Shown: positions 3,537 through 62,552 of the stretch, piece after piece | Layout: every line of letters begins with the position of its first letter | How positions within the stretch are numbered: the first letter of the stretch is position 1 | Source: a virus | DNA: 64,000 bases | IMG/VR virus record: IMGVR_UViG_3300028794_000198 | Location: 26,049-90,048 of that record | Reading direction: 5' to 3' (one strand) | The notes under the pieces: generated by a model | What the model was told of the DNA's origin: nothing | The model's input: the letters and a program-made list of their open reading frames with translations, nothing else | Database searches by the model: none | Made by a program: the position numbers and the translations under genes

Positions 3537-3562
3537 ATGTCCGTTTAGGGTTGGATCAAGGT

Positions 3563-3742: not shown

Positions 3743-3768
3743 GCTCGCCTCCCCGGTGGCCGACGTAC

Positions 3769-4417: not shown

Positions 4418-4421
4418 CGCC

Positions 4422-24456: not shown

Positions 24457-26522
24457 AACAGGCCTGCGGCGGCCTGCTCAACAGACTCTCGGGACCAGCC
24501 GCGGACCTGCGCCCGGCCATCCCACTCCTGACGGATCGCCGTCACCGACGGGGCATGCTTCCGAAGCAGCTGAGAGAGGCCGTTGGCGTCCATCTGCACG
24601 CCCGCCTCGCCGAGCGCGGGGAGCAGTTCCTCGGTCGTCGGCAGGAACGTCTTCGCGCCGAACGCCCGCAGCAGAACGGCGACCGTCGCCGCATCCTCCA
24701 CACCGCCCTGCTCGTCGAGAGCGACGAGGCGGTCGGCCAGGGACGCTTCGCCCGCCGCACCATCGCGGCGGATCACGTGCAGCAGGTTGGCGGCGGCGAG
24801 GCTGGCGTGGTCGAACCAGGGACGTCCGGCGTCCTTGCGGTCCTTGACGGCCTGCCGAATCTGGTCACGCTCGAACCGGTTCCACCGCCACAGCACGGGC
24901 CGGTCGAAGCCAGGGCCAGCGATGTAGAACTTGCCGGCGTCGTAGACCCGCTCGTCGTCGACGGCCGGACGCAGCCGGTCGGGACGGTATCCCGCCGCGG
25001 AGGCCCCCTTACCCAGGACAAGGGGGATGTCCTCGCTGCGCGCGGCGAGCATCACCCGGTAGGTGACGGCGCTGGCGATGGCGTCACCGAGGGAGTCTTG
25101 TGTGGCTTCCTGGGCGGCGAAGAGGAGGTAGACGCCGGTCTCGCGGCCGATGCGGAGGATCTCGATGGCGAGTTCCTTGGCTTCCTTGGGTAGGAAGATG
25201 AACTCGTCGATCAGGCCGAAGATGGCGGGCTCTTCGGGGGTGGGCTCCCACAGGTCGCCCATCTCCTTGGCCGACTTGACCTGATTGCGGGCCGAGGCGA
25301 TGTCGCGCAGCCAGCGCAGCTTCTCCGTGCACTCCTTCGGTCCACGGATCGGCGGCAGCGCCATGACCTCGGAGAACTCGCGGATTCCGTCCTTGACCGG
25401 GTCCATCTCGATGGCGATGGCGTCCCGGCATGCGGTGATGACCTCGGCGAGGCAGCGCAGCGCCCCCTTCGTCTTCGCCGACCCGGACGAACCGATGACC
25501 ATCATGAACATTCCGCGCAGGCGCATCTCCAGCAAGGTGCCGTCCATGCAGCGGCCGTACACCACCGCATCCTTCACCGACAGGCTGTTCGGCGAGTGCA
25601 CCGACGGCCGGGGCATGTCGGCGAACGGATCCGACTGCACGAGACGCAGCGTGAGGTGGGAGTTGTCCTCCGGGTCCGGCTCGCACAGGGTCTGCCCCTT
25701 GCCGATGCCGAAGTGGGAGTCCAGCTTGCTCATTACGGCGTTGACCTGCTCCGGCGCCGCCCCCTTGAGGACGACGTCGATCTCCCAGCCCCAGCCACGG
25801 TAGCCGAGCACGCGCACCGCGCGGGTGTCGATGCCCTCCCAGGCGAGCGCCCGGGTGACGCACTGCTCGACCTTGTCCGGCGACTGCGCAACCGCGAGCG
25901 GGAACGGCTCGTCGCTGGTCGGGTCGTCCTGCTCGGCGACGATCTGCTCGGGCGCAAGGCCGGTGTTGTTGAGCCGGTAGCGCCCGTACCAGGTGACGGC
26001 GGAGGCCACGGACAGGGCGAGCACGCCTGGCGTGATCCACCACGAGTCCGCGGCGGTCATGCCCGCTTCGGCGACGAGCGCCCACCAGCCGGCGAGGTTG
26101 AGTGCGGCCAGCGCGCCGGCGCCCCAGCCGAGGAACTTCCAGCGCCGGTGGCGGATCTCGGTGTTGCGGCGCCAGTCGGTCGACGAGGTGACGCCGCCGA
26201 TCGCCTCCTGATAGTCGTGGGAGCGCAGGTACCGCCAGCCGAGGAAGGAGACAGCGCCGGCGCCGGCGCCGAACCAGCGAGCCGCCGTCCAACTGCCGCG
26301 CACCGACAGGCCGACAGCGCGCCCGGTGGTCTTGGCGACGACCATGGCCGCGCTGCCGGTCTTCCGCAGTACCGGGTAGGCCGGCTCGTAGGGCAGGAGG
26401 ACGCCAGGCGCGATGTCGTCGTCGAGTTCCCCGGACAGGTCGTCGGGGACTTCGAGCTCGCCCGGGATCACCTTCGTCAGGTCCCAGCCGGGCGGGAGTT
26501 CCGGGTTCATCTCGAGGCTCAT
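24423..26522 (-). CDS. FtsK/SpoIIIE-family TraB-like conjugative DNA translocase
   Basis: N-terminal TMs, GSSGSAKT Walker A, GLIDEF Walker B, GRETGV..FAAQ, C-terminal wHTH ending RGW. Confidence 0.85.
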   Translation of the reverse strand: MSLEMNPELPPGWDLTKVIPGELEVPDDLSGELDDDIAPGVLLPYEPAYPVLRKTGSAAMVVAKTTGRAVGLSVRGSWTAARWFGAGAGAVSFLGWRYLRSHDYQEAIGGVTSSTDWRRNTEIRHRRWKFLGWGAGALAALNLAGWWALVAEAGMTAADSWWITPGVLALSVASAVTWYGRYRLNNTGLAPEQIVAEQDDPTSDEPFPLAVAQSPDKVEQCVTRALAWEGIDTRAVRVLGYRGWGWEIDVVLKGAAPEQVNAVMSKLDSHFGIGKGQTLCEPDPEDNSHLTLRLVQSDPFADMPRPSVHSPNSLSVKDAVVYGRCMDGTLLEMRLRGMFMMVIGSSGSAKTKGALRCLAEVITACRDAIAIEMDPVKDGIREFSEVMALPPIRGPKECTEKLRWLRDIASARNQVKSAKEMGDLWEPTPEEPAIFGLIDEFIFLPKEAKELAIEILRIGRETGVYLLFAAQEATQDSLGDAIASAVTYRVMLAARSEDIPLVLGKGASAAGYRPDRLRPAVDDERVYDAGKFYIAGPGFDRPVLWRWNRFERDQIRQAVKDRKDAGRPWFDHASLAAANLLHVIRRDGAAGEASLADRLVALDEQGGVEDAATVAVLLRAFGAKTFLPTTEELLPALGEAGVQMDANGLSQLLRKHAPSVTAIRQEWDGRAQVRGWSRESVEQAAAGLLGPTMARLRAA

Positions 26523-27820
26523 GACGGGTCCTTCTGGGTGCTCTGCTCAAGGCGTGCCTGAGTGCGGGCGATAGGGCTGGGCGGCTGGCTGTCGCCGGCC
26601 CGTCGGACGGGCGGAGTGCCGCCGTTGTTGCGGCGCCCGTCGGGGGCGTTCGGGTCACGCTTGGAGCGGGGACCCTTTTGGGATTCGATCAGCGAGAACT
26701 CGCCGAAAACGGGCGCTTCAGTGACGGTCCGCATGTGGGCCTGTGCGGCGCGCGACTGAGCTTCGATTTCGGGACGGATTCCGACCGTCTTGCAGCCGGT
26801 AACGAGGAACCAGGACTCGGCCCAGATCTGGTCCGTGACGAACCTGGAACCGCGCGCGGAACGGATCGCGTCAGCGACCTGCCACACGTCGCCGTGCGTC
26901 GCCTCGCGGTCGGCGTCCTTGCGGGTCTGCTCCTCCTCGGCGGCCTTCTCGCGGGCCACCCTCTCGGCTGCCGCTTTCGTATCGGCAGCCTGCTTCTCGG
27001 CGCGCGCCTTCTCGCGGGCGGCGTCCGCCTGGGCCTTGGCGCGCTCGGCAGCCCGGCGCTCACGGCCGGATGGGATCCCGTCGACCTTCTGCGCGATGCC
27101 GTGCTCGTAGGTCATCAGCACGATCGGTCCACCGAGGGAAGCGATCGCGCCGATGATGCCGGCGTTGAGGCCGATCGCCGGGTCGGTCATGCCGCCGTAC
27201 AGGTTGACGGCTGCGGCGATCACGGCGCCAACCATGATGCCGACGCGGTAGGGGCGAACGTCGCGCCGGTGGGCAACCGCCCATGCGGCGCCGAACGCGA
27301 GGACGAGGGCGAAGCCTTCGAGCAGTGCCGGGGCAGCGATGAGGAACTTGCGGTGCGGGTCCCAGAAGTGCATGAACTGCACCGGCGCTGCGATCACCAA
27401 GCCGACGGCATAGATGCCGCGGGCGCCCCACTTCCACCAGCGCTCCGAACGCTTCTGCTCCTTGGCGATCCGCACCTCCAGAGCTTCCGCCTCAGCCTCG
27501 GCCGCGTCTGCCTTCTCCCGATCCGCTTCGGCCTTGGCGGCTTCGGCGGCCTTCTTGGCGAGGTAGACGTCGTGGTCGGCCTGCTTCCTCTCCTGGGCCA
27601 GGCGGGCTCGCTCGTTGGTGAGCCGTTCTTTTTCGGCTTGTTCGGCGGCGAGGATCTCGGCAGCCTTCGCCTCGCCTTCAGCCTTGATGCGTAGCGCGTC
27701 GGCTTCAGCAGCAGCCCGGGTGCGGATCGCCTCCGCCTCGGCCAGCGCGCGCGGGTCGAACCGCGGCTCGGGCGAGGCCAGCGGCGAGCCGTTGACCTTC
27801 TTCTCGACGGAGGTTGTCAC
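26519..27820 (-). CDS. SpdB2/DUF2637-like spread protein
   Basis: Coiled coil, four TMs (AAPALLEG...AAAVNL), coiled coil; coupled to the traB-like gene. Confidence 0.7.
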   Translation of the reverse strand: MTTSVEKKVNGSPLASPEPRFDPRALAEAEAIRTRAAAEADALRIKAEGEAKAAEILAAEQAEKERLTNERARLAQERKQADHDVYLAKKAAEAAKAEADREKADAAEAEAEALEVRIAKEQKRSERWWKWGARGIYAVGLVIAAPVQFMHFWDPHRKFLIAAPALLEGFALVLAFGAAWAVAHRRDVRPYRVGIMVGAVIAAAVNLYGGMTDPAIGLNAGIIGAIASLGGPIVLMTYEHGIAQKVDGIPSGRERRAAERAKAQADAAREKARAEKQAADTKAAAERVAREKAAEEEQTRKDADREATHGDVWQVADAIRSARGSRFVTDQIWAESWFLVTGCKTVGIRPEIEAQSRAAQAHMRTVTEAPVFGEFSLIESQKGPRSKRDPNAPDGRRNNGGTPPVRRAGDSQPPSPIARTQARLEQSTQKDPS

Positions 27821-27838
27821 GATCGGGTCCTTTCGGAT

Positions 27839-28042
27839 TCAGCCGCGCGGGGCGGCGCGGTGGGCGATGAACGTTGCGGTGGCGTTGGCCGCGCTGTAGG
27901 CGGTCGCGTAGAACACGGCGACAGCTGCGGCGACCGTGACGACGGTGGGGGCGCCGAGCGTGCTGACGGCGGTCAAGGTGACGGAGGCGACCAGGGCGGA
28001 TGCGACGCCGATCGCAACCAGGACGAGACGGTTCAGGCACAT
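27839..28042 (-). CDS. Small two-TM protein
   Basis: MCLNRLVLVAIG...; hydrophobic. Confidence 0.6.
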   Translation of the reverse strand: MCLNRLVLVAIGVASALVASVTLTAVSTLGAPTVVTVAAAVAVFYATAYSAANATATFIAHRAAPRG

Positions 28043-28043
28043 G

Positions 28044-28241
28044 TCAGCCCCTCCCCCGCCGGGTCGTCTTGCGCCAGCCGAAGCCGCCGGGGAGGTTCCA
28101 CGACGTGGTACGACGGCCGGTCGAACTGCGGGTGTAGTGCGGCGTGTTCTTGCCGCCCAACGTGATCGACCAGCTGTGCAGGCCGATGTTGACGCGGACA
28201 CCGGGCAGGACCCGGAAGGACTTGCGGAAGGTGATCGGCAT
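28044..28241 (-). CDS. DUF4236-like protein
   Basis: FRKSFRVLPGVRVNIG..S.S.TLG...NLPG. Confidence 0.8.
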   Translation of the reverse strand: MPITFRKSFRVLPGVRVNIGLHSWSITLGGKNTPHYTRSSTGRRTTSWNLPGGFGWRKTTRRGRG

Positions 28242-28519
28242 CAGACCGTCTCCGATCCGAGCGGCACCGGCGTGAAGCCGACCTCGCCGTCCACCTTGTC
28301 CGGGAAGTCAGGGCCCGCGACCTGGTGCGATCGCATCCGGTAAGGGCGCTGCAGCCGCCACACCATCGGCGTGTAGTCGAAGGCCACGGTGTAACCGTCG
28401 GCGGTCGGCCAGTCCAGTTCGGAGGCGGCGCGGACTGCGTCGGTCGGGTCGGCGGCGCGAACCCACTCGGTGTAGACGCCGGACGGGCGGGTCGGCCAGG
28501 TCACGCTGTACTTCTTCAT
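28241..28519 (-). CDS. Hypothetical protein
   Basis: GAGGAG RBS. Confidence 0.65.
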   Translation of the reverse strand: MKKYSVTWPTRPSGVYTEWVRAADPTDAVRAASELDWPTADGYTVAFDYTPMVWRLQRPYRMRSHQVAGPDFPDKVDGEVGFTPVPLGSETV

Positions 28520-28554
28520 GCGGTGCTCCTCTCAGGGGTGGGGTCGGGGGCCGC

Positions 28555-28728
28555 TCAGCCGCCGATTTCCTTCAGGTAGGCCTTGGCCTCGCTCTTCGAG
28601 ACCTCCAGGCAGGTGGCGACGATCGTTGCGTCGGCGTCGGGGTTGACCTCCCGGATCGCCTCGATGCGGCGGATGTGCTCGTCGTGCCGGACCGGGTTCT
28701 GCGGCACGTTGCGGTTGAACAGGCCCAT
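28555..28728 (-). CDS. Small HTH-like protein (not in ORF track)
   Basis: MGLFNRN...IVATCLEVSKSEAKAYL; GAGGA RBS. Confidence 0.6.
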   Translation of the reverse strand: MGLFNRNVPQNPVRHDEHIRRIEAIREVNPDADATIVATCLEVSKSEAKAYLKEIGG

Positions 28729-28740
28729 ATCGGGTTCCTC

Positions 28741-29037
28741 TCAGGCGGGCGCGCCGGTGCGCGCCTTGTGGAATTCGCGGATGAACTCGTCGGTGAGCCC
28801 GGCGCCGAGTGCGGCCCCGACCGGGCCGATCCCGGTCACGTCAGCGGCCCACAGCTCCAGCCACGCCATACGGGTGGCGGCGTAGTTGATGACCGGGCGC
28901 ATGCAGCGGATCGCGAACACGACCGCCCCGAGCGCGCACATGACGGTCAGGGCGAGGGCCCGCAGCGCCCACCGGCCCGCGAACCGGGCAGCGAGATGCA
29001 GCCGACCGGGCTTCGCGGTGATCAGGTACGGGCGCAT
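28741..29037 (-). CDS. Hypothetical membrane protein
   Basis: ATG at 29037 with GAGGAG RBS. Confidence 0.6.
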   Translation of the reverse strand: MRPYLITAKPGRLHLAARFAGRWALRALALTVMCALGAVVFAIRCMRPVINYAATRMAWLELWAADVTGIGPVGAALGAGLTDEFIREFHKARTGAPA

Positions 29038-29054
29038 GCGGACTCCTCTCGGGG

Positions 29055-29567
29055 TCAGGCGATGGTGTGGATGGGTGCGCGCCGGGCCACACGAACGGGT
29101 CCGGCGGCGGGGTTGAGGTGGGCGGCGAGGCGCTCCAGTTCGCAGGCCTGGGCTTCGCCGTCGTCCCACTGCGCGTCGTACTGCTCCAGCTCGGCGGCCG
29201 GGAGCCGGGACAAGGCTTCTTCGGTGCGGAACTTTTCGACCCGCCGCACGCCCGGTCGCAGCATCTGCGCGGCGTGCACGAGTTCGTGAATGACGGTCTT
29301 GTCGACCTCGGACGCGTCGTAGAGGTGGGCTTGGGCGTTGACGACGGCGAGGACCCGGTCGAGGCCGTACAAGGTGCAGCCGTACAGGCCGTCGTCGTCA
29401 CCGGCGAGGAGGCGGGTGAAGTAGGTGCCGGTGACGAGGAGTTCCACCCCGAGCAGGCGCACACCCATCTCGCTCTCGACGAGCGCGGCGGCCTGGTCGG
29501 CAATGGCGCACACCCGGTCCAGGACTGGGCGTCGGGCCGGGCCGATGGCGTAGGCGTTGACCTGCAC
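29055..29567 (-). CDS. Putative zinc metallopeptidase
   Basis: IHELVHAAQ (HExxH) and downstream EAQA. Confidence 0.7.
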   Translation of the reverse strand: MQVNAYAIGPARRPVLDRVCAIADQAAALVESEMGVRLLGVELLVTGTYFTRLLAGDDDGLYGCTLYGLDRVLAVVNAQAHLYDASEVDKTVIHELVHAAQMLRPGVRRVEKFRTEEALSRLPAAELEQYDAQWDDGEAQACELERLAAHLNPAAGPVRVARRAPIHTIA

Positions 29568-49210: not shown

Positions 49211-49423
49211 TCAGGGCCCGGCGCGCGGGCGGGCGTGGTCGGGGCACAGGTCGCGCCCGTCCCGGGTCCATCGCCAGCCGCGGCCTTTGAGCAGTCGCCG
49301 GAGTTCGCGGTGGATGTGCGGCTCGAACCGGACGGGCCAGCTGCCTTCCGCTCCACAGCGGCCGTCGGATTCGGTCTGGTCTGCCGCGTCGCAGCGGAGG
49401 ACGAGGTAGGCGTCGGCGGTCAT
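49211..49423 (-). CDS. Small Zn-binding protein
   Basis: CD...CG...GW...DLCPDH. Confidence 0.65.
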   Translation of the reverse strand: MTADAYLVLRCDAADQTESDGRCGAEGSWPVRFEPHIHRELRRLLKGRGWRWTRDGRDLCPDHARPRAGP

Positions 49424-50472
49424 GCGGCGGCCTCGCCTTCGTCGGCTGCACGCATGGGGATGCCGAAGGCGGCTGAGATGACGTGTTCGGCCAGAAGGCA
49501 CGGGACCGCGTTGCCGATCTGCTCGTAGCGCTTCGTCTGGCTCCCCTGGAACGGGTGGCCCACCGGGAAGCTCTGCACCAGCGCGGCGTCTTCCGGCGTG
49601 ACGCGGATGGTGTCCCGCCGTCCCCCGCGGTAGGCGGGGAGCTGGTCGGCGTCGACGATGCGCCTGCAGTCGATCCACCGGCCGGCGTCGCGTTCGCCGT
49701 ACAACGTGGCGCGGGCGCCGGAGCCTCCGACACAGGAGGGGTCGGGTCCGCCGGCCGCGGTGCCGACGGCGATGGTGAGTGCGGGCCGGTGGGTCATGCC
49801 CCAGCCGATGGCGTCGGCCATGGAGATCCACGGCTTGAGTCCGAAGGCTTCCTGTACCTGGGTCTCGCCCCTGCGATAGCGGTGGTGGGTGGGCTGCGGG
49901 AGCCGTGCTTCGCCGTTGAGGGTGGCGACGAGGAAGGCGCGGCTGCGGGTCTGCGGTACGCCGTACTCCTCGGCGGACAGGCGCCCGGTGGCGACGCTGT
50001 ATCCCTCGGCGCGCAGGTGTCCGGCGAAGGCTTCCCAGACGGGGAGCACGGTGGGCACCTGCTCCAGCAGGATCGTGCGGTACGGGCGTCCGGCGTCCTT
50101 CGCTTCCAGCGCCCAGCGCAGCGGCTCCAAGACGAGCCCGGTCCGCTCGTCGTCAAAGCCCTTCAGTGCCAGGGCGATGCTCTGCCGGGCGGTAAGCAGC
50201 TGCGCCAGGTCGAGGACGGTGTCGAGCGCCTTCCGCCCTCCACCCTTCCCTCCGACAGAGAATGGCTGACAAGGCGGAGAGCCGATCGCGGTGGTGGCGT
50301 CGGGGAAGTCGGCGGGCCCGTAGTCGCGGACGTCGCCTTCGACGGTTCCAAGCCCGGCCGCGCGCCGCGTCTCGCATGCGGCGTGGTCGCGTTCGATGCC
50401 GGTCACGTCCAGGCCGAGCCGGGTGGCGCCCACGTCCCAGCCGCCCGGCCCGGCGAAGAGGTCCACGATCAT
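49420..50472 (-). CDS. DNA (cytosine-5) methyltransferase
   Basis: DLFAGPGG, GSPPCQ, EQV, PQTRSR, QIGNAVP. Confidence 0.93.
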   Translation of the reverse strand: MIVDLFAGPGGWDVGATRLGLDVTGIERDHAACETRRAAGLGTVEGDVRDYGPADFPDATTAIGSPPCQPFSVGGKGGGRKALDTVLDLAQLLTARQSIALALKGFDDERTGLVLEPLRWALEAKDAGRPYRTILLEQVPTVLPVWEAFAGHLRAEGYSVATGRLSAEEYGVPQTRSRAFLVATLNGEARLPQPTHHRYRRGETQVQEAFGLKPWISMADAIGWGMTHRPALTIAVGTAAGGPDPSCVGGSGARATLYGERDAGRWIDCRRIVDADQLPAYRGGRRDTIRVTPEDAALVQSFPVGHPFQGSQTKRYEQIGNAVPCLLAEHVISAAFGIPMRAADEGEAAA

Positions 50473-51905
50473 GCCGCCGCCTCCTCGGTCTCGCCGTAGT
50501 GGCGTGCGACGAGGGGCTGCCAGTCGATGCCGGTTGCGGCGCCGACGACTGCTGCTGCGGCGCGGGGGCACCAGGCGTTGCCGACCTGCTCGAACTGCTT
50601 GGTCCTGGTGCCCTGCCACGGGTAGTCGGCGGGGAATGACTGGAGGACTGCCGCCTCAGTAACGGTGATGCGCACGGTGTCGGGGCTGGCGAACTGGGAC
50701 TCGCCGTCGCTTGAGCGGTCACGGTGGCCGGGCGGGGCGATCCTGTCGGTGGCGCACACGGTGGTGGCTGGTCGAGTATTGGTCCACTCGTACTCGTTGC
50801 GGGCGTTCCCGAACGCGAGGGTTGCGGCCGGCTCGTCCACCGTGCGTACCGTGGCGTTGGCGCGGGCGTTGTGCTTGAGCATCCACTGACTGCCGGATTG
50901 GACTGTAAAGGCAGGTGCGGGTGCGGTGTGCGGGTTGATCGTCTGCCTGGTGCCGTCCGGCTGCTGATGGCGGTTGGTGTGCAGGATCCAGGAGCGGGCC
51001 TTCTCGGTGAGAGCCCACGATGGCTCGTCGACGCCGAAGTTGTTGCCGCCCGGCGTCTTGCGGTCGCCGCGGGTGTTGACCACGTCGGATGCTTCCAGGT
51101 TGAGCGCCTGGGCCATGGACACCCACGGCTTCAGGCAGTCACCGAACAGGTCGTGTGCCGGATCCTCATCGTGGGTGGCATCGGGTGCGGCGACGCGGCG
51201 GACGCTGGACGCGATGAGTACGGCGCGTTTCCGTGTCTGCGGCACCCCGTAGTTGGCGGCGTTGAGGATGCCCGTCCATACCGACCAGCCGAGGCGGCGC
51301 AGTTCTTCGGCGTACACCTTCCACAGCGGGAGGACGCCGGGCACCTGCTCGAATGCCGCCCATTCCAGGGGTATGCCGCCGCTGGCGTCGCCGGTGATCA
51401 GAGCGTGCAGGTAGCGGGCGGGTTCGAGGATGAGGACGGTGACGAACGCGTCGTCGCGGGCCGCGGCCTCTACCTTGTCCTGCGTCCACGGCTTGCGGCG
51501 CTTGGCGTTGGCCGCCTGCTGCTCGGCGAGGGCGGCCGGGTAGATCTGGTCGCGGAGTTCCCGGCGGCAGTCATCGCCACGGAACATGCGCTGGATGCCG
51601 CTGGCGAGCAGACCCATGACCTTCAGGCCGAACTGCTTGCCGGCGGCGGAGAACTTGGTGCAGGGCGGGGAGAAGACGGCGCCCCAGACGCGGCCGACGA
51701 GCGGCGCCAGGACGAAGGAGGACACGTCGACGCGCACGGTCAGGTGCCCGGCGGCGGCCCGGGTCTTGCAGGCCGCCTCATCCCATTCGAGGCCGACGTC
51801 CTGGAGGCCGAGCATGCGGAGGCCTTCCGACCAGCCACCAGGACCCGCGAAGAGGTCGAGGATGATGCCCTTCTGCTGCGGGGCCCACGCGATGTTGAAA
51901 CTCAC
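50469..51905 (-). CDS. DNA (cytosine-5) methyltransferase
   Basis: DLFAGPGG, SPPCT, EQV, PQTRKR, QVGNA. Confidence 0.93.
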   Translation of the reverse strand: MSFNIAWAPQQKGIILDLFAGPGGWSEGLRMLGLQDVGLEWDEAACKTRAAAGHLTVRVDVSSFVLAPLVGRVWGAVFSPPCTKFSAAGKQFGLKVMGLLASGIQRMFRGDDCRRELRDQIYPAALAEQQAANAKRRKPWTQDKVEAAARDDAFVTVLILEPARYLHALITGDASGGIPLEWAAFEQVPGVLPLWKVYAEELRRLGWSVWTGILNAANYGVPQTRKRAVLIASSVRRVAAPDATHDEDPAHDLFGDCLKPWVSMAQALNLEASDVVNTRGDRKTPGGNNFGVDEPSWALTEKARSWILHTNRHQQPDGTRQTINPHTAPAPAFTVQSGSQWMLKHNARANATVRTVDEPAATLAFGNARNEYEWTNTRPATTVCATDRIAPPGHRDRSSDGESQFASPDTVRITVTEAAVLQSFPADYPWQGTRTKQFEQVGNAWCPRAAAAVVGAATGIDWQPLVARHYGETEEAAA

Positions 51906-52780
51906 GCGGCAGCCCCCAGCCCGGCCTTGGCCGTCTTCTCTTGCTGGGGGCGGACGCGCTTCTGTCCGCTGCGCCATTCCTGGACGATCTGGCGGACGGT
52001 GGAGATGGACACCTCGTTGTCGAGGCGGGCGAGGATCTGCTCAGGGGTGTCGCCGTGCCAGGCGAAGTGGATGATTTCTTCGCGGCGGAGTTCGGCCCGC
52101 TCGTGGAAGTTGAGCTGGACGGCTGGTGCGTCTGGCTCACAGTCGGGGTTGTCTATGTCGTCCCAGGCGCCGGGTGGCGCCCAGCCTTCGCGGGCGGCCC
52201 GTCGTTCGTTCTTCCAGTTGGTGCCGCGCTGGTGGACGAGTTGCCGGTAGGTCTCGGCGAGGGCGGTGGCCGCTTTGTTGTCGATGACGTTCCAGCGGGC
52301 TTCGGCGAGGAGGCTGATGCTGGCGATGCTGAGCCCGCTGCGTGTGGAGATGTCGGCGCGCCCGTGGCCGAGGCTGTAGAGGGCGCGGACGCGTCGGATG
52401 GATCCGATGGCGGGGCGTTCGGCGTTGCCGTCGAAGCGGTGTGGCCGGACGGTGAGGATCCGGCGGGCCACGTCCGCCTGGCAGGTTTTGTTGCGGCCGG
52501 TGGTGACGTAGGAGATGGCGGACTGGGCGACGCCGGCCTCTCGGGCGATCATGGTTTGGCTCATGCCGGTCGCACGCAGCATCAGGATGTGCGGCAGGAC
52601 TTCGGCGACGGGAACGAGGCTGCGTTCGCCGCGCTGGCGGCGGAGTTCCCGTTCCAGGTCGGCGCGCCGGTGGCCGCGCTGGCACAGCTTGCACCGGCAG
52701 GGCGGCCGGGTGCCGGTGCGGTTGCCCTTGTAGCGGGCATCGGTGCCGTGTTCGGGGATGGCGTTGGCTGCGGTGGTCAT
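51902..52780 (-). CDS. Multi-HTH DNA-binding protein
   Basis: HGT..Y...CRC..C; GMSQTMIAREAGVAQSAIS; GWAPP.AWDDID. Confidence 0.8.
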   Translation of the reverse strand: MTTAANAIPEHGTDARYKGNRTGTRPPCRCKLCQRGHRRADLERELRRQRGERSLVPVAEVLPHILMLRATGMSQTMIAREAGVAQSAISYVTTGRNKTCQADVARRILTVRPHRFDGNAERPAIGSIRRVRALYSLGHGRADISTRSGLSIASISLLAEARWNVIDNKAATALAETYRQLVHQRGTNWKNERRAAREGWAPPGAWDDIDNPDCEPDAPAVQLNFHERAELRREEIIHFAWHGDTPEQILARLDNEVSISTVRQIVQEWRSGQKRVRPQQEKTAKAGLGAAA

Positions 52781-54060: not shown

Positions 54061-54882
54061 CTACTGGGTGGGCGGTTGTGCGGTCTCGGGCCAGCCGCCG
54101 ACGGGCTCAAGCTCGGCCTCGACCGGGACGTCTTCCACGTCGGGGTCCGCAGCTTCGAGGACCCCGGCTGTGGAGCCGGCGGGCAGCGGCATGTCGGTGC
54201 GCTCGATGACGGCGCTGCGCTTCTCTGCGGAGGTGGGCACCCACTTGCCGAGGCGGCGGGCTGCGGTCTTCAGCCACATCGACTCTTCGTCGGTGCGCCA
54301 CGGCGAGTACTCACTGTCGGCGCCGTCGGACTTGGCCTTAGCCCGGTTGATGTGGGTGCGGCTGAGGACGACGACCTTGGAGGTCGCGCCGCCCTGCATG
54401 ACGGCGTAGGCGTACACGCCGACGAGATCGCCGCGCTCCCCGAACCAGTCGACGGTGTGAACGGGCCGTTCGTGGAGGCCGGGCACGTAGTTGAACTGGT
54501 CGCCCGCTCGGACGACTTCGACGACGACGGACGATGAGGCGCCCGCGTTGTAGATGAGTTCGACGATGCCCTGGTAGCCGACGATGCCCTGCACTTCGAG
54601 CTGGCCCTTGCGCTTGATGGGGCGCAGGTAGAACTGCTCGGTGCCGGGTTCGAGGCCGAGGCGGGCGGCGGTCATGAGGGCGCTCATGAGGCTGCCCGGG
54701 TTGGCCTGGGCGGCCTGGGCGAGCTTCGGGTTCTGGCGGAGGACGCCGACGGCGAGGCGGGCGAACGTGTCGACCCTGACGTGGCTGGCGGCGACGAGGG
54801 CGAGTTCGGGCTTGTACTGCTCAATGACGGAGGCGGGGCCTTCGTCGCGCTTCTCGATGGCGTTGCCGATGGGGCTGTTCAT
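54061..54882 (-). CDS. recT: RecT-family recombinase
   Basis: AARLGLEP...YL.P...GYQG..EL...SPW....M..KT..RRL.KW.P.S.E. Confidence 0.95.
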   Translation of the reverse strand: MNSPIGNAIEKRDEGPASVIEQYKPELALVAASHVRVDTFARLAVGVLRQNPKLAQAAQANPGSLMSALMTAARLGLEPGTEQFYLRPIKRKGQLEVQGIVGYQGIVELIYNAGASSSVVVEVVRAGDQFNYVPGLHERPVHTVDWFGERGDLVGVYAYAVMQGGATSKVVVLSRTHINRAKAKSDGADSEYSPWRTDEESMWLKTAARRLGKWVPTSAEKRSAVIERTDMPLPAGSTAGVLEAADPDVEDVPVEAELEPVGGWPETAQPPTQ

Positions 54883-55823
54883 GCTGCTTCCTTCTGCTGG
54901 TACGGGCTGAGGGACTTGGTGGTGCCGTCCGCTTTGGGGATGCGGTAGGCGATGCGGCGTTTGCCGACGACGGCCCGCTTGCCGGTGCCGATGTGGTCGA
55001 GGACGACGCCCTTCGCGGCGGCGAGTTCGACGGCGGCGGCCTTAGATGCGGCCTGCGCGTTTTGGTAGCGGTCCGCGTCGACGACAGGGATTTCGACGTC
55101 GACGTCTTCGAAGCCGTCGGGCTGAACCCGGATCGTCTGGTAGGTGTCGTCGGCGCCGTCGATCGGCGGCCGAACACCGTCACGGACTTCGTCGAGGAAC
55201 TTGACGGCGGCGTCGCGGAGGATCTGCGCTTCGGCCTCGTCGTAGTCGACGGTGTATTCGCGGTAGTCGTGGCCGGAGATGAGGACCGCGAACTGGGTGC
55301 GGCGCAGGCCGAGCGTGTCCATCTGCCAGATGACCTGGCAGCGGTACCAGAGCGGCACCCCGTCATCGGCGCCGGACGGGCCCCAGTCGTCTCCGAACGG
55401 GGACGTCTTCACCTCCAGCAGTTCCTCGGCCTGGTCCGACACCTCGAACTCGCCTGCGGGCTGCGGGTAGATGAGCCGGTCGGGGGTGGCGCGCTGCCAT
55501 TCCCGCTCCCGGTTGAACCAGGTGCCAGCCGGGGCGGCGAGTCGGCCCGGGTGCTCGTCCTCCCACTTCTGCGCGACCGGGTCTTCGAGCCGGCTCCCCC
55601 ACTCGATCCCCGACGTCATCTCGAACGGGGCGACGGCCAGGCCCGACTTCTTGTGCCACAGCGTGAAGCGCGACATCCACGGCGACAGGCCGACCACAGC
55701 GGCGATCTCGGTGGCGGTGATGGTGAGTCCGGCGCGGGCCGCATCCCACGCCTCTGTGCCGGGCGTGAGGTGCCCGATGAGGACGCCGTCAGGGGCGGGA
55801 TAGGGGTGTTGTGTGGTGCTCAC
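54879..55823 (-). CDS. YqaJ-like viral recombinase exonuclease
   Basis: W...R..ITATEIAAVVGLSPW, ATPDR, LEVKT, Y.CQV.WQM. Confidence 0.93.
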   Translation of the reverse strand: MSTTQHPYPAPDGVLIGHLTPGTEAWDAARAGLTITATEIAAVVGLSPWMSRFTLWHKKSGLAVAPFEMTSGIEWGSRLEDPVAQKWEDEHPGRLAAPAGTWFNREREWQRATPDRLIYPQPAGEFEVSDQAEELLEVKTSPFGDDWGPSGADDGVPLWYRCQVIWQMDTLGLRRTQFAVLISGHDYREYTVDYDEAEAQILRDAAVKFLDEVRDGVRPPIDGADDTYQTIRVQPDGFEDVDVEIPVVDADRYQNAQAASKAAAVELAAAKGVVLDHIGTGKRAVVGKRRIAYRIPKADGTTKSLSPYQQKEAA

Positions 55824-55993
55824 TTCTGGTGCTCCTGTTCGCTTCTGAGCTGCGTGTTCGGCGTGAAATGGGTGTCGAATGCCGGGCCTCGCCGCCCGCG
55901 ACCGGGGGGTGGTTGGGGCGGCGAGGCCTCGGCTGGCGTCCGGAGCGGCTTGGGGGAAGCGCGCTCAACGGGCGCCGTCTGTGGGGTTGTTGG

Positions 55994-57190
55994 TCAGGCG
56001 GTGGCGTCAGCCGTGGCGGTCTCGGCGGGCTGCGGCTTGATGGCCTTCCACTCGCTGGCTTCGGCGTCGAACGTGACGTGCGGGTTGTCGTCGACGCGGA
56101 AGCCGATCCCGGCGTCCTTCGCGTCGTTCAGCGCGAGCGCCAACCGGACCGCCCACTTGCGGGGCTCCTCGGCGTACTGCTTGGCGAGGCGGGCTTCGTA
56201 GTCGTCGTTCCACTGCTTGGGGTTGAAGCCGGACTGTTCGGCCATGTCGTAGGCCCACTCGCCGAGTTCGCCGGAGTCGAGCTGTTCGGCGGTGTCCTCG
56301 ACGACGGCGCGGGCGGCGCGCGGGTCGACCTGGTGGAGGGCGTCGAGGTAGCGGTAGGCCATCCAGTCGGAGACGCCGGAGCGGATGTGCGCGAACCAGG
56401 CGTCCTGGTCGTCGTCGAAGGACGTGTTGTAGACGTTCGACGTCGAGTCGAGGACCCCCTTGAGCAGGTTGGCGGCGGTCTCGTCGATGCTGCGGGTGGC
56501 CCACAAGCGGGACGGCTCCGGGAGCGGCAGGCTGGCCATGTCGACGTCGGCGGCCCCGGCGGCCAACGTCCACAGCCACAGGCTGTGTGCGGAGTCGAAG
56601 GTCTGCTCCTTGGTCGGGCCGATGCTGCCGCCACCGGACGGCATCTGTGCGCCGATGAAGTCCTCGCCGAAGAACAGGACGGCCTTCCGGTCGGCGGTGA
56701 TGCGGGTGCGGAGGCTCTGCTCGGCGGCCGACCACTTGCGGAAGAGGTCGGAGTTGAGGGCCGGGAACGGTTCGCCGTCGACGGTCTGGGCGGCGATGGT
56801 GCGGAGCAGGCCGCGCCAGTCGGGGAACTCCAGGCTGAGGCTGACGGCGACGTTGAGGTCGGAGAGCGGGCCATCGAAGACCAGCCGGGCTTCCTCGGTG
56901 GCGCTGATGGTGATGTAGCTGGCGCCCTTCATCGCACCGACCCACTCGCGGAGGGCGGGCACGATGTCGCCGGGGATGGTGGCCGCCCACGGCTCCTGGT
57001 TCTGGTCGCCGCTGTCGAGGCGGAAGCGGGCGGCGGCGATCGTGAACCGATCCGTGGCGACGGCGTACAGGTACTGGCTGTCGACGTCGAGGCGGATGCC
57101 GTACAGGGGCTCGAAGCCGTCGTGGCCCATGTGGGCGGCCGTCTTGTCGAGGAGGAGCTTCAGCTGATGGGCGTTGATCGTGACGGACAC
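55994..57190 (-). CDS. DNA polymerase III beta-clamp-like protein with C-terminal extension
   Basis: L.GIRL...AVATDRF, FPDWRGL, F.G.QMP. Confidence 0.7.
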   Translation of the reverse strand: MSVTINAHQLKLLLDKTAAHMGHDGFEPLYGIRLDVDSQYLYAVATDRFTIAAARFRLDSGDQNQEPWAATIPGDIVPALREWVGAMKGASYITISATEEARLVFDGPLSDLNVAVSLSLEFPDWRGLLRTIAAQTVDGEPFPALNSDLFRKWSAAEQSLRTRITADRKAVLFFGEDFIGAQMPSGGGSIGPTKEQTFDSAHSLWLWTLAAGAADVDMASLPLPEPSRLWATRSIDETAANLLKGVLDSTSNVYNTSFDDDQDAWFAHIRSGVSDWMAYRYLDALHQVDPRAARAVVEDTAEQLDSGELGEWAYDMAEQSGFNPKQWNDDYEARLAKQYAEEPRKWAVRLALALNDAKDAGIGFRVDDNPHVTFDAEASEWKAIKPQPAETATADATA

Positions 57191-57295
57191 GTCTTCTCCT
57201 GAGAGAGTGGTGGTGGACTCCCGCCGACTTCGCCTCGGCGGGGTTCTTGCGTTGGGCGCCGGCTGGCCGGGAGGGTGCACCGGCCAGCCGGACGT

Positions 57296-59986: not shown

Positions 59987-60222
59987 GCCGCACCACCGAG
60001 CGTGATGCCGAGGCGGCGGGCGAACTCCACGAACGGCGGGTGGTCTTCGGCGCGGGCGGCGAGAGTGCCGGCCTCGATCAGGCTGGCCACGTGAATCACG
60101 TCGATCTCGACGTGCGAGACACCCGCCTCGTCCGTATAGGGGATGGTGTTGATGCCGAGCTCGGCACACAGGTGCTTGATCACGGCGGTGGTGTCGTCCG
60201 ACGCGGGGGTCTGGTCGCTCAT
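59983..60222 (-). CDS. Hypothetical protein
   Basis: ATGA overlap with the RAMP gene stop. Confidence 0.6.
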   Translation of the reverse strand: MSDQTPASDDTTAVIKHLCAELGINTIPYTDEAGVSHVEIDVIHVASLIEAGTLAARAEDHPPFVEFARRLGITLGGAA

Positions 60223-60890
60223 GCGGTGGCCTCCCACTTGATGACCTCGTACCTGCCGAAGCCCTGCGAGCGGGAAGCGCCGACGCCCTGCTGTTCGCCG
60301 GTGAGCCAGAGCATGGCCCACTCTTCGTCGGTGAACGCGTAGTCGGAGATGACCGTGAAGTCGAACTCGGCGGTCTCGATGAACTCCGTGTACTGGATGC
60401 CGGTTTGGCCGGTGCGCGGGTTCTTCGGGAAGGACTGGAGGACGCCGGTGGGCTCGGTGACGCCGAGGTGGAGCTTGTCCTCGACGACCATGATGTGTTC
60501 GGCGACGAAGCCTTGGACGCCCTTGTTGGTGGAGCCCCAGCGGGACTTCAGCTTGTCGACGGAGCGGGCGACGGACGCGGCTTCCTTGATCGCGGCCTTC
60601 AACTGGCGGCCTTCGATGTACAAGCCGTCCTCGTCGCGACGGAAGCCGTTGAGGTGCTTGTTGGTGTCGACGAGCTTCGCGGCCTCGTCGGCGGTGACGC
60701 CTCGGTCGACCATGGTCTGGGCGACCATCTCGCGGATCAGGTCGTCCTTGTCGGCGAGTTTGGTTCGCAGCCAGCCCTCGGCGACCTTCGGGTCAGTCGG
60801 CGTGCCGCCTGCGATGTTCTTCACGCGGATGGTGCCGTGGAAGCGGTGGGGCCACGCCTTGTCGGTGAAGCTGGCGAAGATGCTGGTCAT
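60219..60890 (-). CDS. Stand-alone Cas7-group RAMP-like protein
   Basis: LYIEGRQLKAAIKEAA (cf. RAMP P.IPGSSLKG..R helix), putative thumb hairpin, C-terminal Gly-rich loop GVGASRSQGFGRYEV; AAAGGA RBS. Confidence 0.8.
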   Translation of the reverse strand: MTSIFASFTDKAWPHRFHGTIRVKNIAGGTPTDPKVAEGWLRTKLADKDDLIREMVAQTMVDRGVTADEAAKLVDTNKHLNGFRRDEDGLYIEGRQLKAAIKEAASVARSVDKLKSRWGSTNKGVQGFVAEHIMVVEDKLHLGVTEPTGVLQSFPKNPRTGQTGIQYTEFIETAEFDFTVISDYAFTDEEWAMLWLTGEQQGVGASRSQGFGRYEVIKWEATA

Positions 60891-60919
60891 GTGGTGAGTT
60901 CCTTTCGGTGACCTGGGCG

Positions 60920-61642
60920 GTCGTGTGGGCTGCGGCGGAGTGGGCTGAGTTGGAATGGGTAGTCGGCTAGGCCTGGCCTGCGGAGGGTTGGCAAGTCGTC
61001 ATGGGACGGTGGGCGCCGAGGCGAGACGGGAAGAGCAGTCGTTGCGGGCGGGCTCGGGTCGAGGCGGATCGAGATGGCATGTCGGTTGGAGCGAGTCGTG
61101 ATGTGTGGCGAGGTGGCGAGCCGGACCGGGTAGTCGGTCGGAGCTGGGCCGGGGTGGCTGGTCCAGGCCGGGGCGGGGGTGTCGGAGGGCTTGGCTCGGA
61201 CTGTGCGGCGACGAGCCGGATTGGGAAGTCGGCACGGGATGGGGTGGGTGGCCGGGCCTCGTGTCGGGCAGTCGGTACGGCGTGGTGAGGGTGGGCTTGG
61301 CACGTCGACGCGAGTCAGAGCGGGCTGGTTGGTGAAGCGACGGATAGTCGGCATGGGTAGCGCTGAACTGCGCGGGGCAGGAGGGGGCAGAAAAGTCGGC
61401 TGGGTGGGGCGGCAGCGGGAAGCCCTGCGTAGGGGCGCGTAGTCGACGAGGGGCGGGAAGTAACGGCCCGGGTTGATCCGTCGGCATGGGGTGTGGAGGC
61501 TGGCGCGGTGGCGAAAAGAAAAGTCGGCAAGAGTTGGGATGAGGTGCGGTCGCGTGGCGTCGGGAAGTCGTTCCGAGTGGGGTGGAAACGCCTGGGCGTG
61601 AATAGTCGAGGAGGTGTGAGGCGCGGTGTGTCGGCCGGTGCT
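60920..61642 (-). repeat. Pentamer-phased array of 17 units, putative guide-RNA array
   Basis: Plus strand [GTC (GNNNN)6-10] x17; 134 of 135 blocks start with G; transcribed strand assumed from the operon. Confidence 0.9.
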
Positions 61643-61647
61643 CTTCG

Positions 61648-62208
61648 TCATGCCGCTGCTCGCGGCATCGCTCGCGGTCCCTGCTGGGTGACGGAGCGGT
61701 ACATCTCCAGGTACTGCGCCTCTGTGAAGACCTCGCCGACCAACTGGCCGCCGATCTTCTTGCCGACCGCCCGGTGGAACGCCGCCTCCAACTTCGAGAT
61801 CCGCGCCGCGTCCTCGTACTTCGAGGCGACGAACCGGCAGTCGTCGGCGGTCATGTTCGCCACCGTCCGACGGGTGTTGTCCTCGTCGACCACGTACTCG
61901 GCGGCGAAGGGGTGCAACGCCGTGACGTCACCACCGGCGAAACTGCGGGCCGCCTCGGCGAACGCCCTGCGCGGGGCGCCGATCCGGGCCGCCTGCCGCT
62001 TGCTGTTCGACCTGCGGGCCACGACGTCCGCGAGGATCACCGCCGCCTTCAAGTCCAGCCACCCGGCCAGCAGTTCCGGGTCCTGCGCCCTCAGGTGCTC
62101 CACGAGGTCGGCGGCAACCATCGACGCCACGTAGTCACCTGCGGGAATCGCACCCTCGACCGCCTCGGCCATCTCGGTGATGAAGTCGCGGTCTGTCACA
62201 CTGGACAC
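61648..62208 (-). CDS. Hypothetical protein directly upstream of the array
   Basis: AGGAGG RBS, GTG at 62208; helical. Confidence 0.75.
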   Translation of the reverse strand: MSSVTDRDFITEMAEAVEGAIPAGDYVASMVAADLVEHLRAQDPELLAGWLDLKAAVILADVVARRSNSKRQAARIGAPRRAFAEAARSFAGGDVTALHPFAAEYVVDEDNTRRTVANMTADDCRFVASKYEDAARISKLEAAFHRAVGKKIGGQLVGEVFTEAQYLEMYRSVTQQGPRAMPRAAA

Positions 62209-62288
62209 GCGGCCCCTCCTTTCTTGTGGTGAGTTCAGGTGGGTCGCTTCGGCCGGTCGCCTCTGGTGGCCGGCCTTCTCCTTGCCGG

Positions 62289-62552
62289 TCATGCGGCGGC
62301 GCGGGCCGGCTTGTTGAACGGCTGGACCGTGAACTGCTCCGTGATCGCCCGGATGTTGAGCCCGGAGAACCAGATCTTGTTGCCGTTGTTCACGTGGGGG
62401 ATTTCGCGGGCGAACGCCTTCAGGGCGAGCTGGCGAGCGCTGAAGGGGAGCCAGAGCGCAGCCTCAGTGGGCTGGTAGTGGAAGAGCTCGCCCTCGGGAC
62501 TGCTGGGTGCGGGAAGGTTCTCCCGGACCGGGGGAAGCTTGCGGGGGGCCAC
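62289..62552 (-). CDS. Excisionase-like HTH protein
   Basis: Y.PTEAA.WL..S...L.....REIPH...GNKIWF. Confidence 0.7.
   Translation of the reverse strand: MAPRKLPPVRENLPAPSSPEGELFHYQPTEAALWLPFSARQLALKAFAREIPHVNNGNKIWFSGLNIRAITEQFTVQPFNKPARAAA

What the first reader, a model, noticed from the sequence alone, without database searches (positions are those of the whole stretch)
60920..61642. Array grammar: GTC anchor plus 6-10 pentamers with an invariant first G, every unit unique
Seen (parsed by hand, plus strand): GTCG anchors at 60920, 60962, 60995, 61038, 61081, 61133, 61181, 61228, 61271, 61304, 61347, 61395, 61442, 61480, 61523, 61567 and 61605. Spacings are 42,33,43,43,52,48,47,43,33,43,48,47,38,43,44,38, i.e. 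stepped by 5 (5n+3, or 5n+2 when the first block is a 4-mer). Example: GTC GTTGC GGGCG GGCTC GGGTC GAGGC GGATC GAGAT GGCAT. 134 of 135 blocks begin with G (exception AGAGC; one 1-nt insertion allowed). Positions 2-3 are G-biased (GGN/GNG) and positions 4-5 vary freely. On the operon strand a unit reads CGAC-W-NNNC-(NNNNC)n. Period 5 is incompatible with codon structure, and the units are not copies of one another. Inference: each unit is a guide with information interleaved between structural bases, and CGAC marks processing sites.
Basis: seen in the sequence. Interest (0 to 1): 0.93.

Follow-up and report, generated by a model that had tools for sequence, protein, structure and literature searches.

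The report
Actinophage VIPR guide-RNA array
The five-base-rhythm array is real and is the guide-RNA array of a VIPR system, a CRISPR-related phage weapon first described in 2026; one guide exactly spells the catalytic motif of a rival element's integrase gene.

Summary
At 60910-61642 a 733-nt non-coding stretch has a 5-nt rhythm (lag-5 G autocorrelation 0.24, z=6.5, unique in the 64 kb). It parses into 18 units separated by GTC. With five 1-nt slips allowed, 134 of 136 blocks start with G.

The kind is already known. The next gene (60219-60890, minus) folds as a lone Cas7/Csm3-like RAMP. RAMP plus pentamer array in a phage is a VIPR system (bioRxiv 10.64898/2026.04.26.720920 and .720927). This scan has met VIPR, and this actinophage clade, before.

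Fifty-five related loci carry the same grammar next to a homologous RAMP. Positions 4-5 of each pentamer are free; unit lengths peak at 33/38/43/48/53.

Under the published rule (NN pairs, one target base skipped), unit 61347-61394 matches a tyrosine-integrase motif, (M/L/I)YLLRHGHK, in frame. It hit 7 of 401 Streptomyces genomes against 0 for the control, plus both exact IMG/VR hits. A second guide may target a TraB/FtsK-like gene.

Unusual here:
- Guides are short and tail-less.
- The punctuation is a triplet without NN.
- The G-rich strand is antisense to the RAMP gene in 54 of 55 loci.

Which strand is the guide RNA remains unresolved. No RNA data were available.

The parts
60910..61642 (.). 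vrRNA-type guide array. It has 18 units separated by the triplet GTC (plus strand), which reads GAC on the operon strand. Each unit holds 2-9 pentamers, each a fixed triplet plus a variable NN. Anchors lie at 60920, 60962, 60995, 61038, 61081, 61095, 61133, 61181, 61228, 61271, 61304, 61347, 61395, 61442, 61480, 61523, 61567 and 61605. The transcribed strand is unresolved.
   Evidence: Searches give the periodicity and the parse. Searches show the same grammar in 55 related loci.
60219..60890 (-). vipr: a stand-alone Cas7/Csm3-like RAMP protein of 223 aa. It has an RRM core, a helical insertion at 34-76 and a C-terminal glycine-rich loop, GVGASRSQGFGRY.
   Evidence: AF2 model pLDDT 75. Foldseek against PDB: type VII Cas7 and Csm3, E 4e-7, probability 1.0. 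VIA-align Z 8.5-7, top hits almost all Cas7-family proteins. BFVD phage RAMPs, E 9e-11. G-loop hits to Csm4 and Cas6. hhalign to SUSP1 Vipr, E 9e-4. No Pfam or PHROG hit.
61648..62292 (-). Conserved partner gene (214 aa, helical, no known family). It is the candidate vipr-accessory (vap-like) gene.
   Evidence: Homologues sit beside array plus vipr in L002/L009, L004 and L010-L012. One lies directly upstream of vipr in L071 (hhalign probability 98.6%). AF2 pLDDT is 61 and no fold match was found.
61347..61394 (.). Guide unit with nine NN dinucleotides: AT TA CT CT CG CA GG CA AA. Read with one skipped base between pairs, it spells (I/M)YLLR(H/Q)G(H/Q)(K/N). It matches the catalytic-box region of a tyrosine integrase family of Streptomyces proviruses.
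   Evidence: The window's own provirus has no such integrase and no self-target.
61395..61441 (.). Guide unit with eight NN after a 1-nt slip. Its reverse complement spells YA Y(S/R)(F/L)AR(H/Q). It is a candidate match to YAYRFARH in FtsK/SpoIIIE-like (TraB-like) genes of about 640-700 aa.
   Evidence: Weak: 7 hits against 6 control hits overall; three published hits fall in one gene family, in frame.
60891..60909 (-). Short conserved leader with the ribosome-binding site (AAAGGAA) of vipr. The array runs right up to it, which leaves no obvious room for a separate vipr promoter.
   Evidence: Sequence. Conserved in L002, L004 and L013.

Best explanation
This is a VIPR (Viral Interference Programmable Repeat) locus in the early operon of a Streptomyces provirus. 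It consists of a partner gene, a guide array and vipr.

The array encodes about 18 short guide units. In each 5-nt repeat, three bases are fixed and are held by the Vipr RAMP protein. Vipr polymerises along the RNA, one protomer per repeat. The two remaining bases (NN) are free and are presented for pairing.

The NN pairs read double-stranded DNA with one target base skipped between pairs. A guide therefore reads codon positions 1-2 of a gene and ignores the wobble base.

Units are separated by one fixed triplet that has no NN (GTC on the plus strand, GAC on the operon strand). This shifts the register by 3 nt and explains the 5n+3 unit lengths. By inference it ends one filament and starts the next.

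The guides are aimed at rival mobile elements. One reads the catalytic motif of their tyrosine integrase. By analogy with the characterised systems the outcome is transcriptional silencing.

Shown here: the grammar, its conservation, the RAMP fold, the gene linkage and one natural target match.

Inferred from the 2026 preprints: filament binding, DNA silencing.

Unresolved: which strand is the RNA. I put about 60% on the C-rich operon strand and about 40% on the G-rich antisense strand.
For: (1) Period-5 grammar with free positions 4-5.

(2) The adjacent 223-aa protein is a Cas7/Csm3-like RAMP with a G-loop. It aligns weakly to the SUSP1 Vipr, including helix-1 and the G-loop.

(3) Arrays of the same grammar lie beside a homologous RAMP in 55 of 59 loci examined. 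These run from 98% down to about 30% protein identity and from 72% to 46% GC. Of the four without one, three are cut off at the contig end.

(4) Array content turns over much faster than the flanking genes, by whole-unit gain and loss.

(5) 971 units in these loci have lengths peaking at 33/38/43/48/53.

(6) Unit 61347 under the published 1-nt-skip rule:
- 7 hits with at most 1 mismatch in 401 Streptomyces genomes, against 0 for the backwards control.
- All hits lie in one integrase family (PHROG_1, E 6e-25), in frame, with the skipped base on the wobble position.
- Both exact IMG/VR hits belong to the same family.
- Shuffled versions of the guide reach 4 mismatches at best on those contigs.

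(7) There is no self-target.

(8) The published description of VIPR matches in its essentials: phage-borne, a lone RAMP plus an accessory gene, 5-nt repeats, alternative repeats NNNGG / YNNNG / NNNNG, arrays without tails, and rival mobile elements as targets.
Against: - No RNA evidence exists for either strand.
- The G-rich strand, which carries the fixed Gs of all characterised vrRNAs, is antisense to vipr here. In SUSP1 it is the sense strand.
- Position 3 is not a pyrimidine on the G-rich strand.
- The G-contacting residues D177 and W178 of SUSP1 Vipr align to Ala and Ser in this family.
- Only one of five guides tested against large collections gave a clear target. A second is only a candidate.
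- Pooled target searches on small local databases showed no enrichment over shuffled guides.
- Sequence similarity to a published Vipr is weak (hhalign probability 23%).
Confidence: 0.85

Rival explanations
1. A Rho-loading or other cis-regulatory leader. On this view the 750-nt C-rich, G-poor untranslated stretch of the operon mRNA is a transcription-polarity element controlling entry into vipr and the downstream early genes. The YC dinucleotides every 5 nt would be protein-binding sites.
For: On the operon strand C is 49% and G 20%, with Y-C recurring every 5 nt. The stretch is less structured than shuffled sequence (z +1.2). It lies inside an operon downstream of a cro-like gene.
Against: It does not explain several things:
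- the exact 5-nt register, the NN-less punctuation or the quantised unit lengths;
- the uniform composition at two of five positions;
- arrays lying downstream of the RAMP gene in many loci;
- the in-frame match of a unit to a foreign integrase.
The strict linkage to a RAMP gene is explained only if the RAMP is the binding protein, which is then the VIPR model.
Confidence: 0.04
2. A protein-coding gene. The 254-aa frame at 60887-61651 (minus strand), which overlaps both neighbours by ATGA, would be translated into a Pro/Arg/Thr-rich protein.
For: The frame is open across the whole array and has 4-base overlaps at both ends.
Against: - The closest relative with a different array (L002) has several stops in all three frames. 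No frame is conserved across loci.
- There is no lag-3 periodicity.
- Anchors fall in all three frames, because unit lengths are 5n+3.
- Stops are rare by composition on a strand with 20% G and 14% T.
- No Pfam or PHROG hit.
Confidence: 0.02
3. A DNA-level element. The G-every-5 strand would form G-quadruplex or other non-B DNA, or the GTCG anchors would be iterated binding sites (origin, partition site or operator array), with no RNA role.
For: GGNNN repeats can in principle form two-tetrad quadruplexes. The anchors are one-directional and roughly regularly spaced.
Against: - Only G1 is near-invariant, and G2 is 60%, so runs of four GG are not maintained.
- The low-GC relative L074 keeps the period and the anchor with a GTN/NN motif that cannot form G4.
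- Anchor spacing of 33-58 bp is not helically phased.
- It does not explain free positions that spell a foreign gene's codons.
Confidence: 0.04

Closest known systems
VIPR systems (Vipr RAMP + vap + vrRNA). Sources: bioRxiv 10.64898/2026.04.26.720920, 10.64898/2026.04.26.720927, 10.64898/2026.10.15.759431; non-canonical repeat motifs in 10.64898/2026.10.21.760802.
   Same: - Phage or provirus borne.
- A lone minimal RAMP with a G-loop and a helical insertion, beside one small conserved partner gene.
- No cas genes and no CRISPR repeats.
- Non-coding arrays of 5-nt repeats with three constrained and two hypervariable positions.
- A guide that matches a coding sequence of a rival mobile element with the skipped base on the wobble position.
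- The papers state that alternative repeats (NNNGG, YNNNG, NNNNG) and tail-less arrays exist.
   Different: - Here the G-rich strand is antisense to vipr and to the operon.
- Position 3 is not a pyrimidine on that strand.
- Units hold only 6-10 repeats (33-53 nt), against 9-16 repeats plus a structured 3' tail.
- Units abut directly and are separated by a 3-nt NN-less triplet. The papers' 'staggered' arrays are described as overlapping by 1 nt, and I could not see their figures.
- The partner gene has no recognisable DNA-binding or nuclease fold.
- The type (I-VII) could not be assigned, because the papers' tables are not held.
Type II VIPR of Escherichia phage SUSP1 (KT454805.2: vrRNA1 29170-29229, vipr 28474-29061, vap1 28031-28471, downstream array 27802-27949, all on the minus strand).
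   Same: An RNA array lies on one or both sides of vipr, with the accessory gene adjacent. The G-loop and helix-1 align (E 9e-4).
   Different: - The YNNGG repeats of SUSP1 are on the vipr sense strand.
- The profile of this family finds nothing in SUSP1 by HMM.
- The SUSP1 G-loop reads GVGDWRPRFGRF; here it reads GxGASRSQGFGR(Y/F).
- The accessory gene lies upstream of vipr here and downstream in SUSP1.
Class 1 CRISPR effector backbones (Csm3/Cmr4/Cas7, type VII Cas7).
   Same: Best structural matches of the 223-aa protein. The logic is shared: a RAMP filament on a guide RNA with periodic flipped bases.
   Different: - The period is 5 nt, not 6.
- There are no repeats of 20 nt or more, no Cas5/Cas6/Cas10/Cas1/Cas2 nearby, no second RAMP, and no spacer acquisition machinery.

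Membership tests
VIPR system (broad family) | Stand-alone RAMP (Vipr) with an RRM core, glycine-rich loop, thumb and helical insertion, outside any CRISPR-cas locus. | tested here: met
   The neighbours are RecE, RecT, a clamp-like gene, methyltransferases and a cro-like HTH gene, with no cas genes.
VIPR system (broad family) | An adjacent non-coding tandem array of 5-nt repeats with a constrained triplet and a hypervariable dinucleotide (GGY/NN or a related consensus such as NNNGG or NNNNG). | tested here: met
   G 86-95%, R 81-83%, a G-biased third position, then two near-uniform positions. Conserved in 55 loci.
VIPR system (broad family) | Detectable homology of the RAMP to a published Vipr. 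| tested here: inconclusive
   hhalign of the family profile against SUSP1 Vipr gives E 9e-4 but probability 23%, over 126 columns including the G-loop. An HMM search of the SUSP1 genome found nothing. The seed protein X1U2U4 was not available to me.
VIPR system (broad family) | vrRNAs are expressed as discrete small RNAs and bound by Vipr. | not testable with these tools
   No RNA run holds this sequence. Complex prediction does not take RNA.
VIPR system (broad family) | NN dinucleotides match natural targets under the 1-nt-skip rule, mostly coding sequences of rival mobile elements, with the skip on the wobble base. | tested here: met
   Met for unit 61347: integrase, 7 hits against 0 control, both IMG/VR exact hits, all in frame. 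Unit 61395 is a candidate. Units 61133, 61181 and 61480 gave nothing above control.
VIPR system (broad family) | A conserved accessory (vap) gene next to vipr. | tested here: inconclusive
   A 214-aa partner is conserved with vipr. It has no family or fold match, so relation to vap1-6 is unknown.
Type II VIPR (SUSP1 / P. fulva clade) | Canonical YNNGG repeats on the vipr strand, 9-16 repeats, and a conserved structured 3' tail. | tested here: not met
   The G-rich strand is antisense to vipr in 54 of 55 loci. Position 3 is G 48%. Units have 6-10 repeats and no tail.
CRISPR-Cas | Direct repeats of about 23-50 nt separating unique spacers, with cas1/cas2 or effector cas genes nearby. | tested here: not met
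   Units share only a 3-5-nt anchor. The repeat finder reports two weak 2-copy families. No cas genes were found among the operon genes I scanned.
Rho-dependent terminator (rut region) | A C-rich, G-poor, unstructured untranslated RNA that causes Rho-dependent termination. | not testable with these tools
   Composition and low structure fit on the operon strand. Termination cannot be tested here, and the periodic grammar is not a rut feature.

The most novel reading that the evidence does not exclude
In this large actinophage clade the guide RNA is the C-rich operon-sense strand, processed from the early-operon transcript. Vipr would then hold S-Y-C triplets instead of G-G-Y. That would be a re-specified RAMP-RNA recognition code of opposite polarity to every characterised VIPR.

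Guides would be tail-less, 33-53 nt long, and delimited by an NN-less GAC triplet.

Points in favour:
- The array fills the gap between co-directional genes and leaves no room for a vipr promoter.
- Its C-rich strand follows the vipr sense strand in 54 of 55 loci; in the exception, L071, it follows the flanking genes instead.
- A pyrimidine-degenerate position exists only on the C-rich reading.
- The SUSP1 residue that stacks on the pyrimidine (R179) is kept as invariant R207, while the two G-reading residues (D177, W178) are Ala and Ser.
- The C-rich RNA is far less self-structured: -167 against -313 kcal/mol.

Points against:
- All characterised vrRNAs are G-based.
- The papers describe the alternative repeats as NNNGG or NNNNG.
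- L071 has the SUSP1-like same-strand layout on the G-rich reading.
Probability: 0.55. Interest if true: 0.6.

Novelty: new variant of a known kind. Interest (0 to 1): 0.42.

Why it matters
VIPR is a months-old class of RNA-guided DNA binders with a gapped code. So far it has been characterised in two proteobacterial systems.

This locus belongs to a very large actinobacterial clade, with 1477 proteins at 90% clustering and 605 clusters at 50%. The clade keeps the 5-nt logic but differs in three ways: it packs many short tail-less guides head to tail, it punctuates them with an NN-less triplet, and it has the opposite strand polarity relative to vipr.

If the C-rich strand is the guide, the fixed-triplet recognition of Vipr is re-programmable in evolution. 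That bears both on how RAMP proteins came to read RNA and on engineering compact guide arrays.

The integrase match gives a concrete, testable natural target. A temperate Streptomyces phage appears to silence the integrase of a rival integrating element.

Tried and rejected
Readings rejected:
- Protein-coding reading of the 254-aa ORF. The frame is not conserved, there is no codon periodicity, and anchors fall in all frames.
- CRISPR. There are no repeats and no cas genes.
- Known RNA families. Rfam gives nothing; the only hit has E 0.39.

Expression and strand:
- RNA evidence: no RNA holder is listed for this sequence.
- Promoter and terminator scans on the window and on the low-GC relative L074 found no promoter-like sites on either strand. 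One weak terminator-like hairpin lies on the antisense strand just after the L074 vipr stop codon. This is inconclusive for the strand question.

Search for relatives:
- blastn of the locus against 50,697 phage records found no relatives.
- The search for related loci with the broad alignment A2 failed because no conserved stretch was available.

Target searches that gave nothing:
- 611 clade guides against 0.9 Mb of related phage DNA, under seven pairing rules: no excess over shuffled guides.
- 15 window guides against two integrase-bearing contigs: only unit 61347 matches.
- 437 guides against the integrase loci: no excess.
- Unit 61133, which is GC-rich: 32 hits against about 38 control hits.
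- Units 61480 and 61181: the exact IMG/VR hits are low-GC and mostly out of frame. Unit 61480 gave 2 hits against 2 control in 151 genomes.

Other tests:
- NN dinucleotide usage against codon positions 1-2: correlation 0.77 with a sense/antisense mix. This is confounded by base composition and is inconclusive.
- Partner-gene fold: low-confidence helical model with no match.

Procedure:
- One hit in each lay in the unpublished genome G135. No claim here rests on it.

Full report
**Observation.** The stretch between two minus-strand genes (61648-62292 and 60219-60890) is 757 nt long. On the plus strand it is 49% G and 20% C.
- In strict 5-nt phase from those anchors, 86% of blocks start with G. 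Position 2 is G or A in 81%. Positions 4-5 are near uniform.
- Lag-5 autocorrelation of G is 0.24 (z=6.5 against 2000 shuffles).
- In a sliding scan of the 64 kb, all of the highest lag-5 values fall on windows overlapping the array. Codon periodicity is absent.
- A Viterbi parse gives 18 GTC-separated units (the extra anchor is 61095). With five 1-nt slips, 134 of 136 blocks start with G.
- The units are not copies of each other.

**Not a gene.** A 254-aa frame spans the array and overlaps both neighbours by ATGA. In the relative L002 all three frames carry several stops, and no frame is conserved across loci. Unit lengths of 5n+3 also put the anchors in all three frames.

**The neighbour is a RAMP.** The 223-aa downstream protein has no Pfam or PHROG hit, but it belongs to a large family: 1477 proteins and 605 clusters at 50% identity. 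Fold evidence:
- Its AlphaFold model (pLDDT 75) matches type VII Cas7, Csm3, Cmr4 and Cas7-11 domains by Foldseek (E 4e-7, probability 1.0).
- VIA-align gives Z 8.5-7, with the top hits almost all Cas7-family proteins.
- It matches phage RAMPs in BFVD at E 9e-11.
- Its C-terminal GxGAxRSQGxGR(F/Y) matches the RAMP glycine loop of Csm4 and Cas6.

**Linkage.** I examined 59 loci from IMG/VR and GTDB genomes that encode a homologue, at 98% down to about 30% identity and 72% to 46% GC.
- 55 of them carry a period-5 array upstream and/or downstream of the gene, 140-2055 nt long.
- Of the four without an array, three are truncated at the contig end.
- Across 971 units, lengths peak at 33, 38, 43, 48 and 53.
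- Positions 4 and 5 are uniform (22-28% each base).
- The last NN before the anchor is biased to W-A.
- Array content turns over much faster than the flanking genes. Against the 98%-identical relative L013 there are conserved patches, whole-unit deletions and unalignable patches. Against L002 only the first 35 and last 38 nt align.

**It is a known kind.** A look-up of this scan's earlier notes pointed to VIPR, and I read the papers. VIPR systems are phage-borne. They consist of a lone ancestral RAMP (Vipr), an accessory gene (vap) and vrRNAs made of GGY/NN pentamers. The NN pairs with dsDNA, skipping one target base per repeat, usually the wobble base of a rival element's gene. The outcome is silencing. 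Cryo-EM shows one protomer per repeat; the thumb and G-loop hold GGY and present NN. The authors also report alternative repeats (NNNGG, YNNNG, NNNNG), tail-less 'staggered' arrays and seven types. A later preprint lists non-canonical fixed triplets such as GAC/NN and CAC/NN.

I located the SUSP1 reference locus (KT454805.2). Its YNNGG repeats lie on the vipr strand. The profile of our family aligns to SUSP1 Vipr at E 9e-4 (probability 23%), including helix-1 and the G-loop. SUSP1 R179 corresponds to invariant R207 here. The G-reading residues D177 and W178 correspond to Ala205 and Ser206.

**A natural target.** I applied the published rule (NN, one skipped base) to the nine NN of unit 61347-61394.
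- The pattern hit 7 of 401 Streptomyces genomes with at most 1 mismatch. The backwards control hit none.
- All seven hits lie in orthologous proteins of about 455-480 aa, in frame, with the skipped base on the wobble position. They spell (M/L/I)YLLRHGHK.
- The protein is an integrase (PHROG_1, E 5.6e-25).
- The motif, with the downstream RMGHE...Y, looks like the second catalytic box of tyrosine recombinases. That identification is from my own knowledge.
- Both exact matches in IMG/VR are the same integrase family on proviral contigs.
- Shuffled versions of the guide reach 4 mismatches at best on those contigs.
- The seven hits are one gene family and so count as one event. The in-frame register and the target's nature make chance unlikely, but I cannot give a formal probability.
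- The window's own provirus lacks this integrase and has no self-target.

Unit 61395, read on the other strand, spells YAYRFARH. It matches FtsK/SpoIIIE-like (TraB-like) genes exactly in one genome and with one mismatch in two others. The overall count is 7 against 6 control, so this is only a candidate. Three other guides gave nothing above control, and pooled searches on small local databases showed no excess.

**How the array is built.** This part is inference. Each unit is n x (fixed triplet + NN) and is closed by one further fixed-type triplet that lacks NN: GTC on the plus strand, GAC on the operon strand.
- Every NN is therefore flanked by two fixed triplets, which the cryo-EM model requires.
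- The next unit starts 3 nt out of register, which gives the 5n+3 lengths.
- The low-GC relative L074 supports this. Its ordinary triplet on the operon strand is NAC and its punctuation is GAC.
- The register break probably ends one filament and exposes a cleavage site. Neither point is shown.

**Which strand is unresolved.** In 54 of 55 loci the G-rich strand is antisense to vipr.

For the C-rich operon strand:
- The array fills the gap between co-directional genes, right up to the vipr ribosome-binding site.
- In the single exception, L071, the partner gene and vipr are adjacent and on the G-rich strand. There the arrays' C-rich strand still follows the neighbouring genes on the other strand.
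- Only the C-rich reading has a pyrimidine-degenerate position.
- R207 is kept while D177 and W178 are lost.
- The C-rich RNA is much less structured.

For the G-rich strand:
- Every characterised vrRNA is G-based.
- The papers write the alternative repeats with G.
- L071 then looks exactly like SUSP1.
- L074 has a weak terminator-like hairpin at the antisense 3' end.

No RNA run holds the sequence. A target match cannot tell the strands apart, because the NNxNN pattern is symmetric.

**Partner gene.** The 214-aa upstream protein is conserved with vipr. It has no family or fold match.

**Verdict.** The guide interpretation is supported, and the processing claim is untested. The kind has been known since 2026 and this scan has seen it repeatedly, including this clade. 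The locus is a variant in array layout and strand polarity, with one concrete natural target.

Noticed in passing
L071:1-2961 (IMGVR_UViG_3300036815_000096): This is the only locus of 55 in which the G-rich strand of the arrays is on the vipr strand. The partner gene (405-974) and vipr (986-1669) are adjacent with no array between them. Arrays flank the pair on both sides, and the next genes (2994-4596) run on the opposite strand. It looks like an inversion of the gene pair inside an array.
   Followed up: partly
L074:3838-4330 (IMGVR_UViG_3300006924_000268, GC 46%): A distant relative (31% identity) keeps the 5-nt period and the CCGAC anchor. Its fixed triplet is NAC on the operon strand (GTN on the other). 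A G/C-rich hairpin sits directly after the vipr stop codon.
   Followed up: partly
window 24423-26522 (minus): The provirus carries its own TraB/FtsK-like gene of 699 aa. A candidate guide (61395-61441) matches a different, distantly related TraB-like family in other Streptomyces genomes (BLASTP E 5e-7 between the two), and it does not match the phage's own copy.
   Followed up: partly
window 49420-51977 and 54061-57280 (minus): The early operon downstream of vipr holds two C5-cytosine DNA methyltransferase genes, a RecT/RecE pair and a DNA polymerase III beta-clamp-like gene.
   Followed up: no
L120, L117, L126, L127 (low-GC IMG/VR contigs): Exact matches of guide 61480, read on the other strand, repeatedly spell (L/F)FAR(Q/H)ST(I/M). 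In L120 this is followed by GWDVWGNE, which resembles the end of MT-A70-type methyltransferases (from my own knowledge). The hosts are unrelated, so this is probably coincidence.
   Followed up: no
L057:4126-6250, L064:1101-3025, L037:1084-2958: Some relatives carry arrays of about 1.9-2.1 kb, roughly 45-50 units. That is far larger than this window's 18 units.
   Followed up: no
L014:3400-3700: The array of the Streptacidiphilus carbonis relative contains a masked or low-complexity stretch that reads as almost no G or C in the held copy.
   Followed up: no
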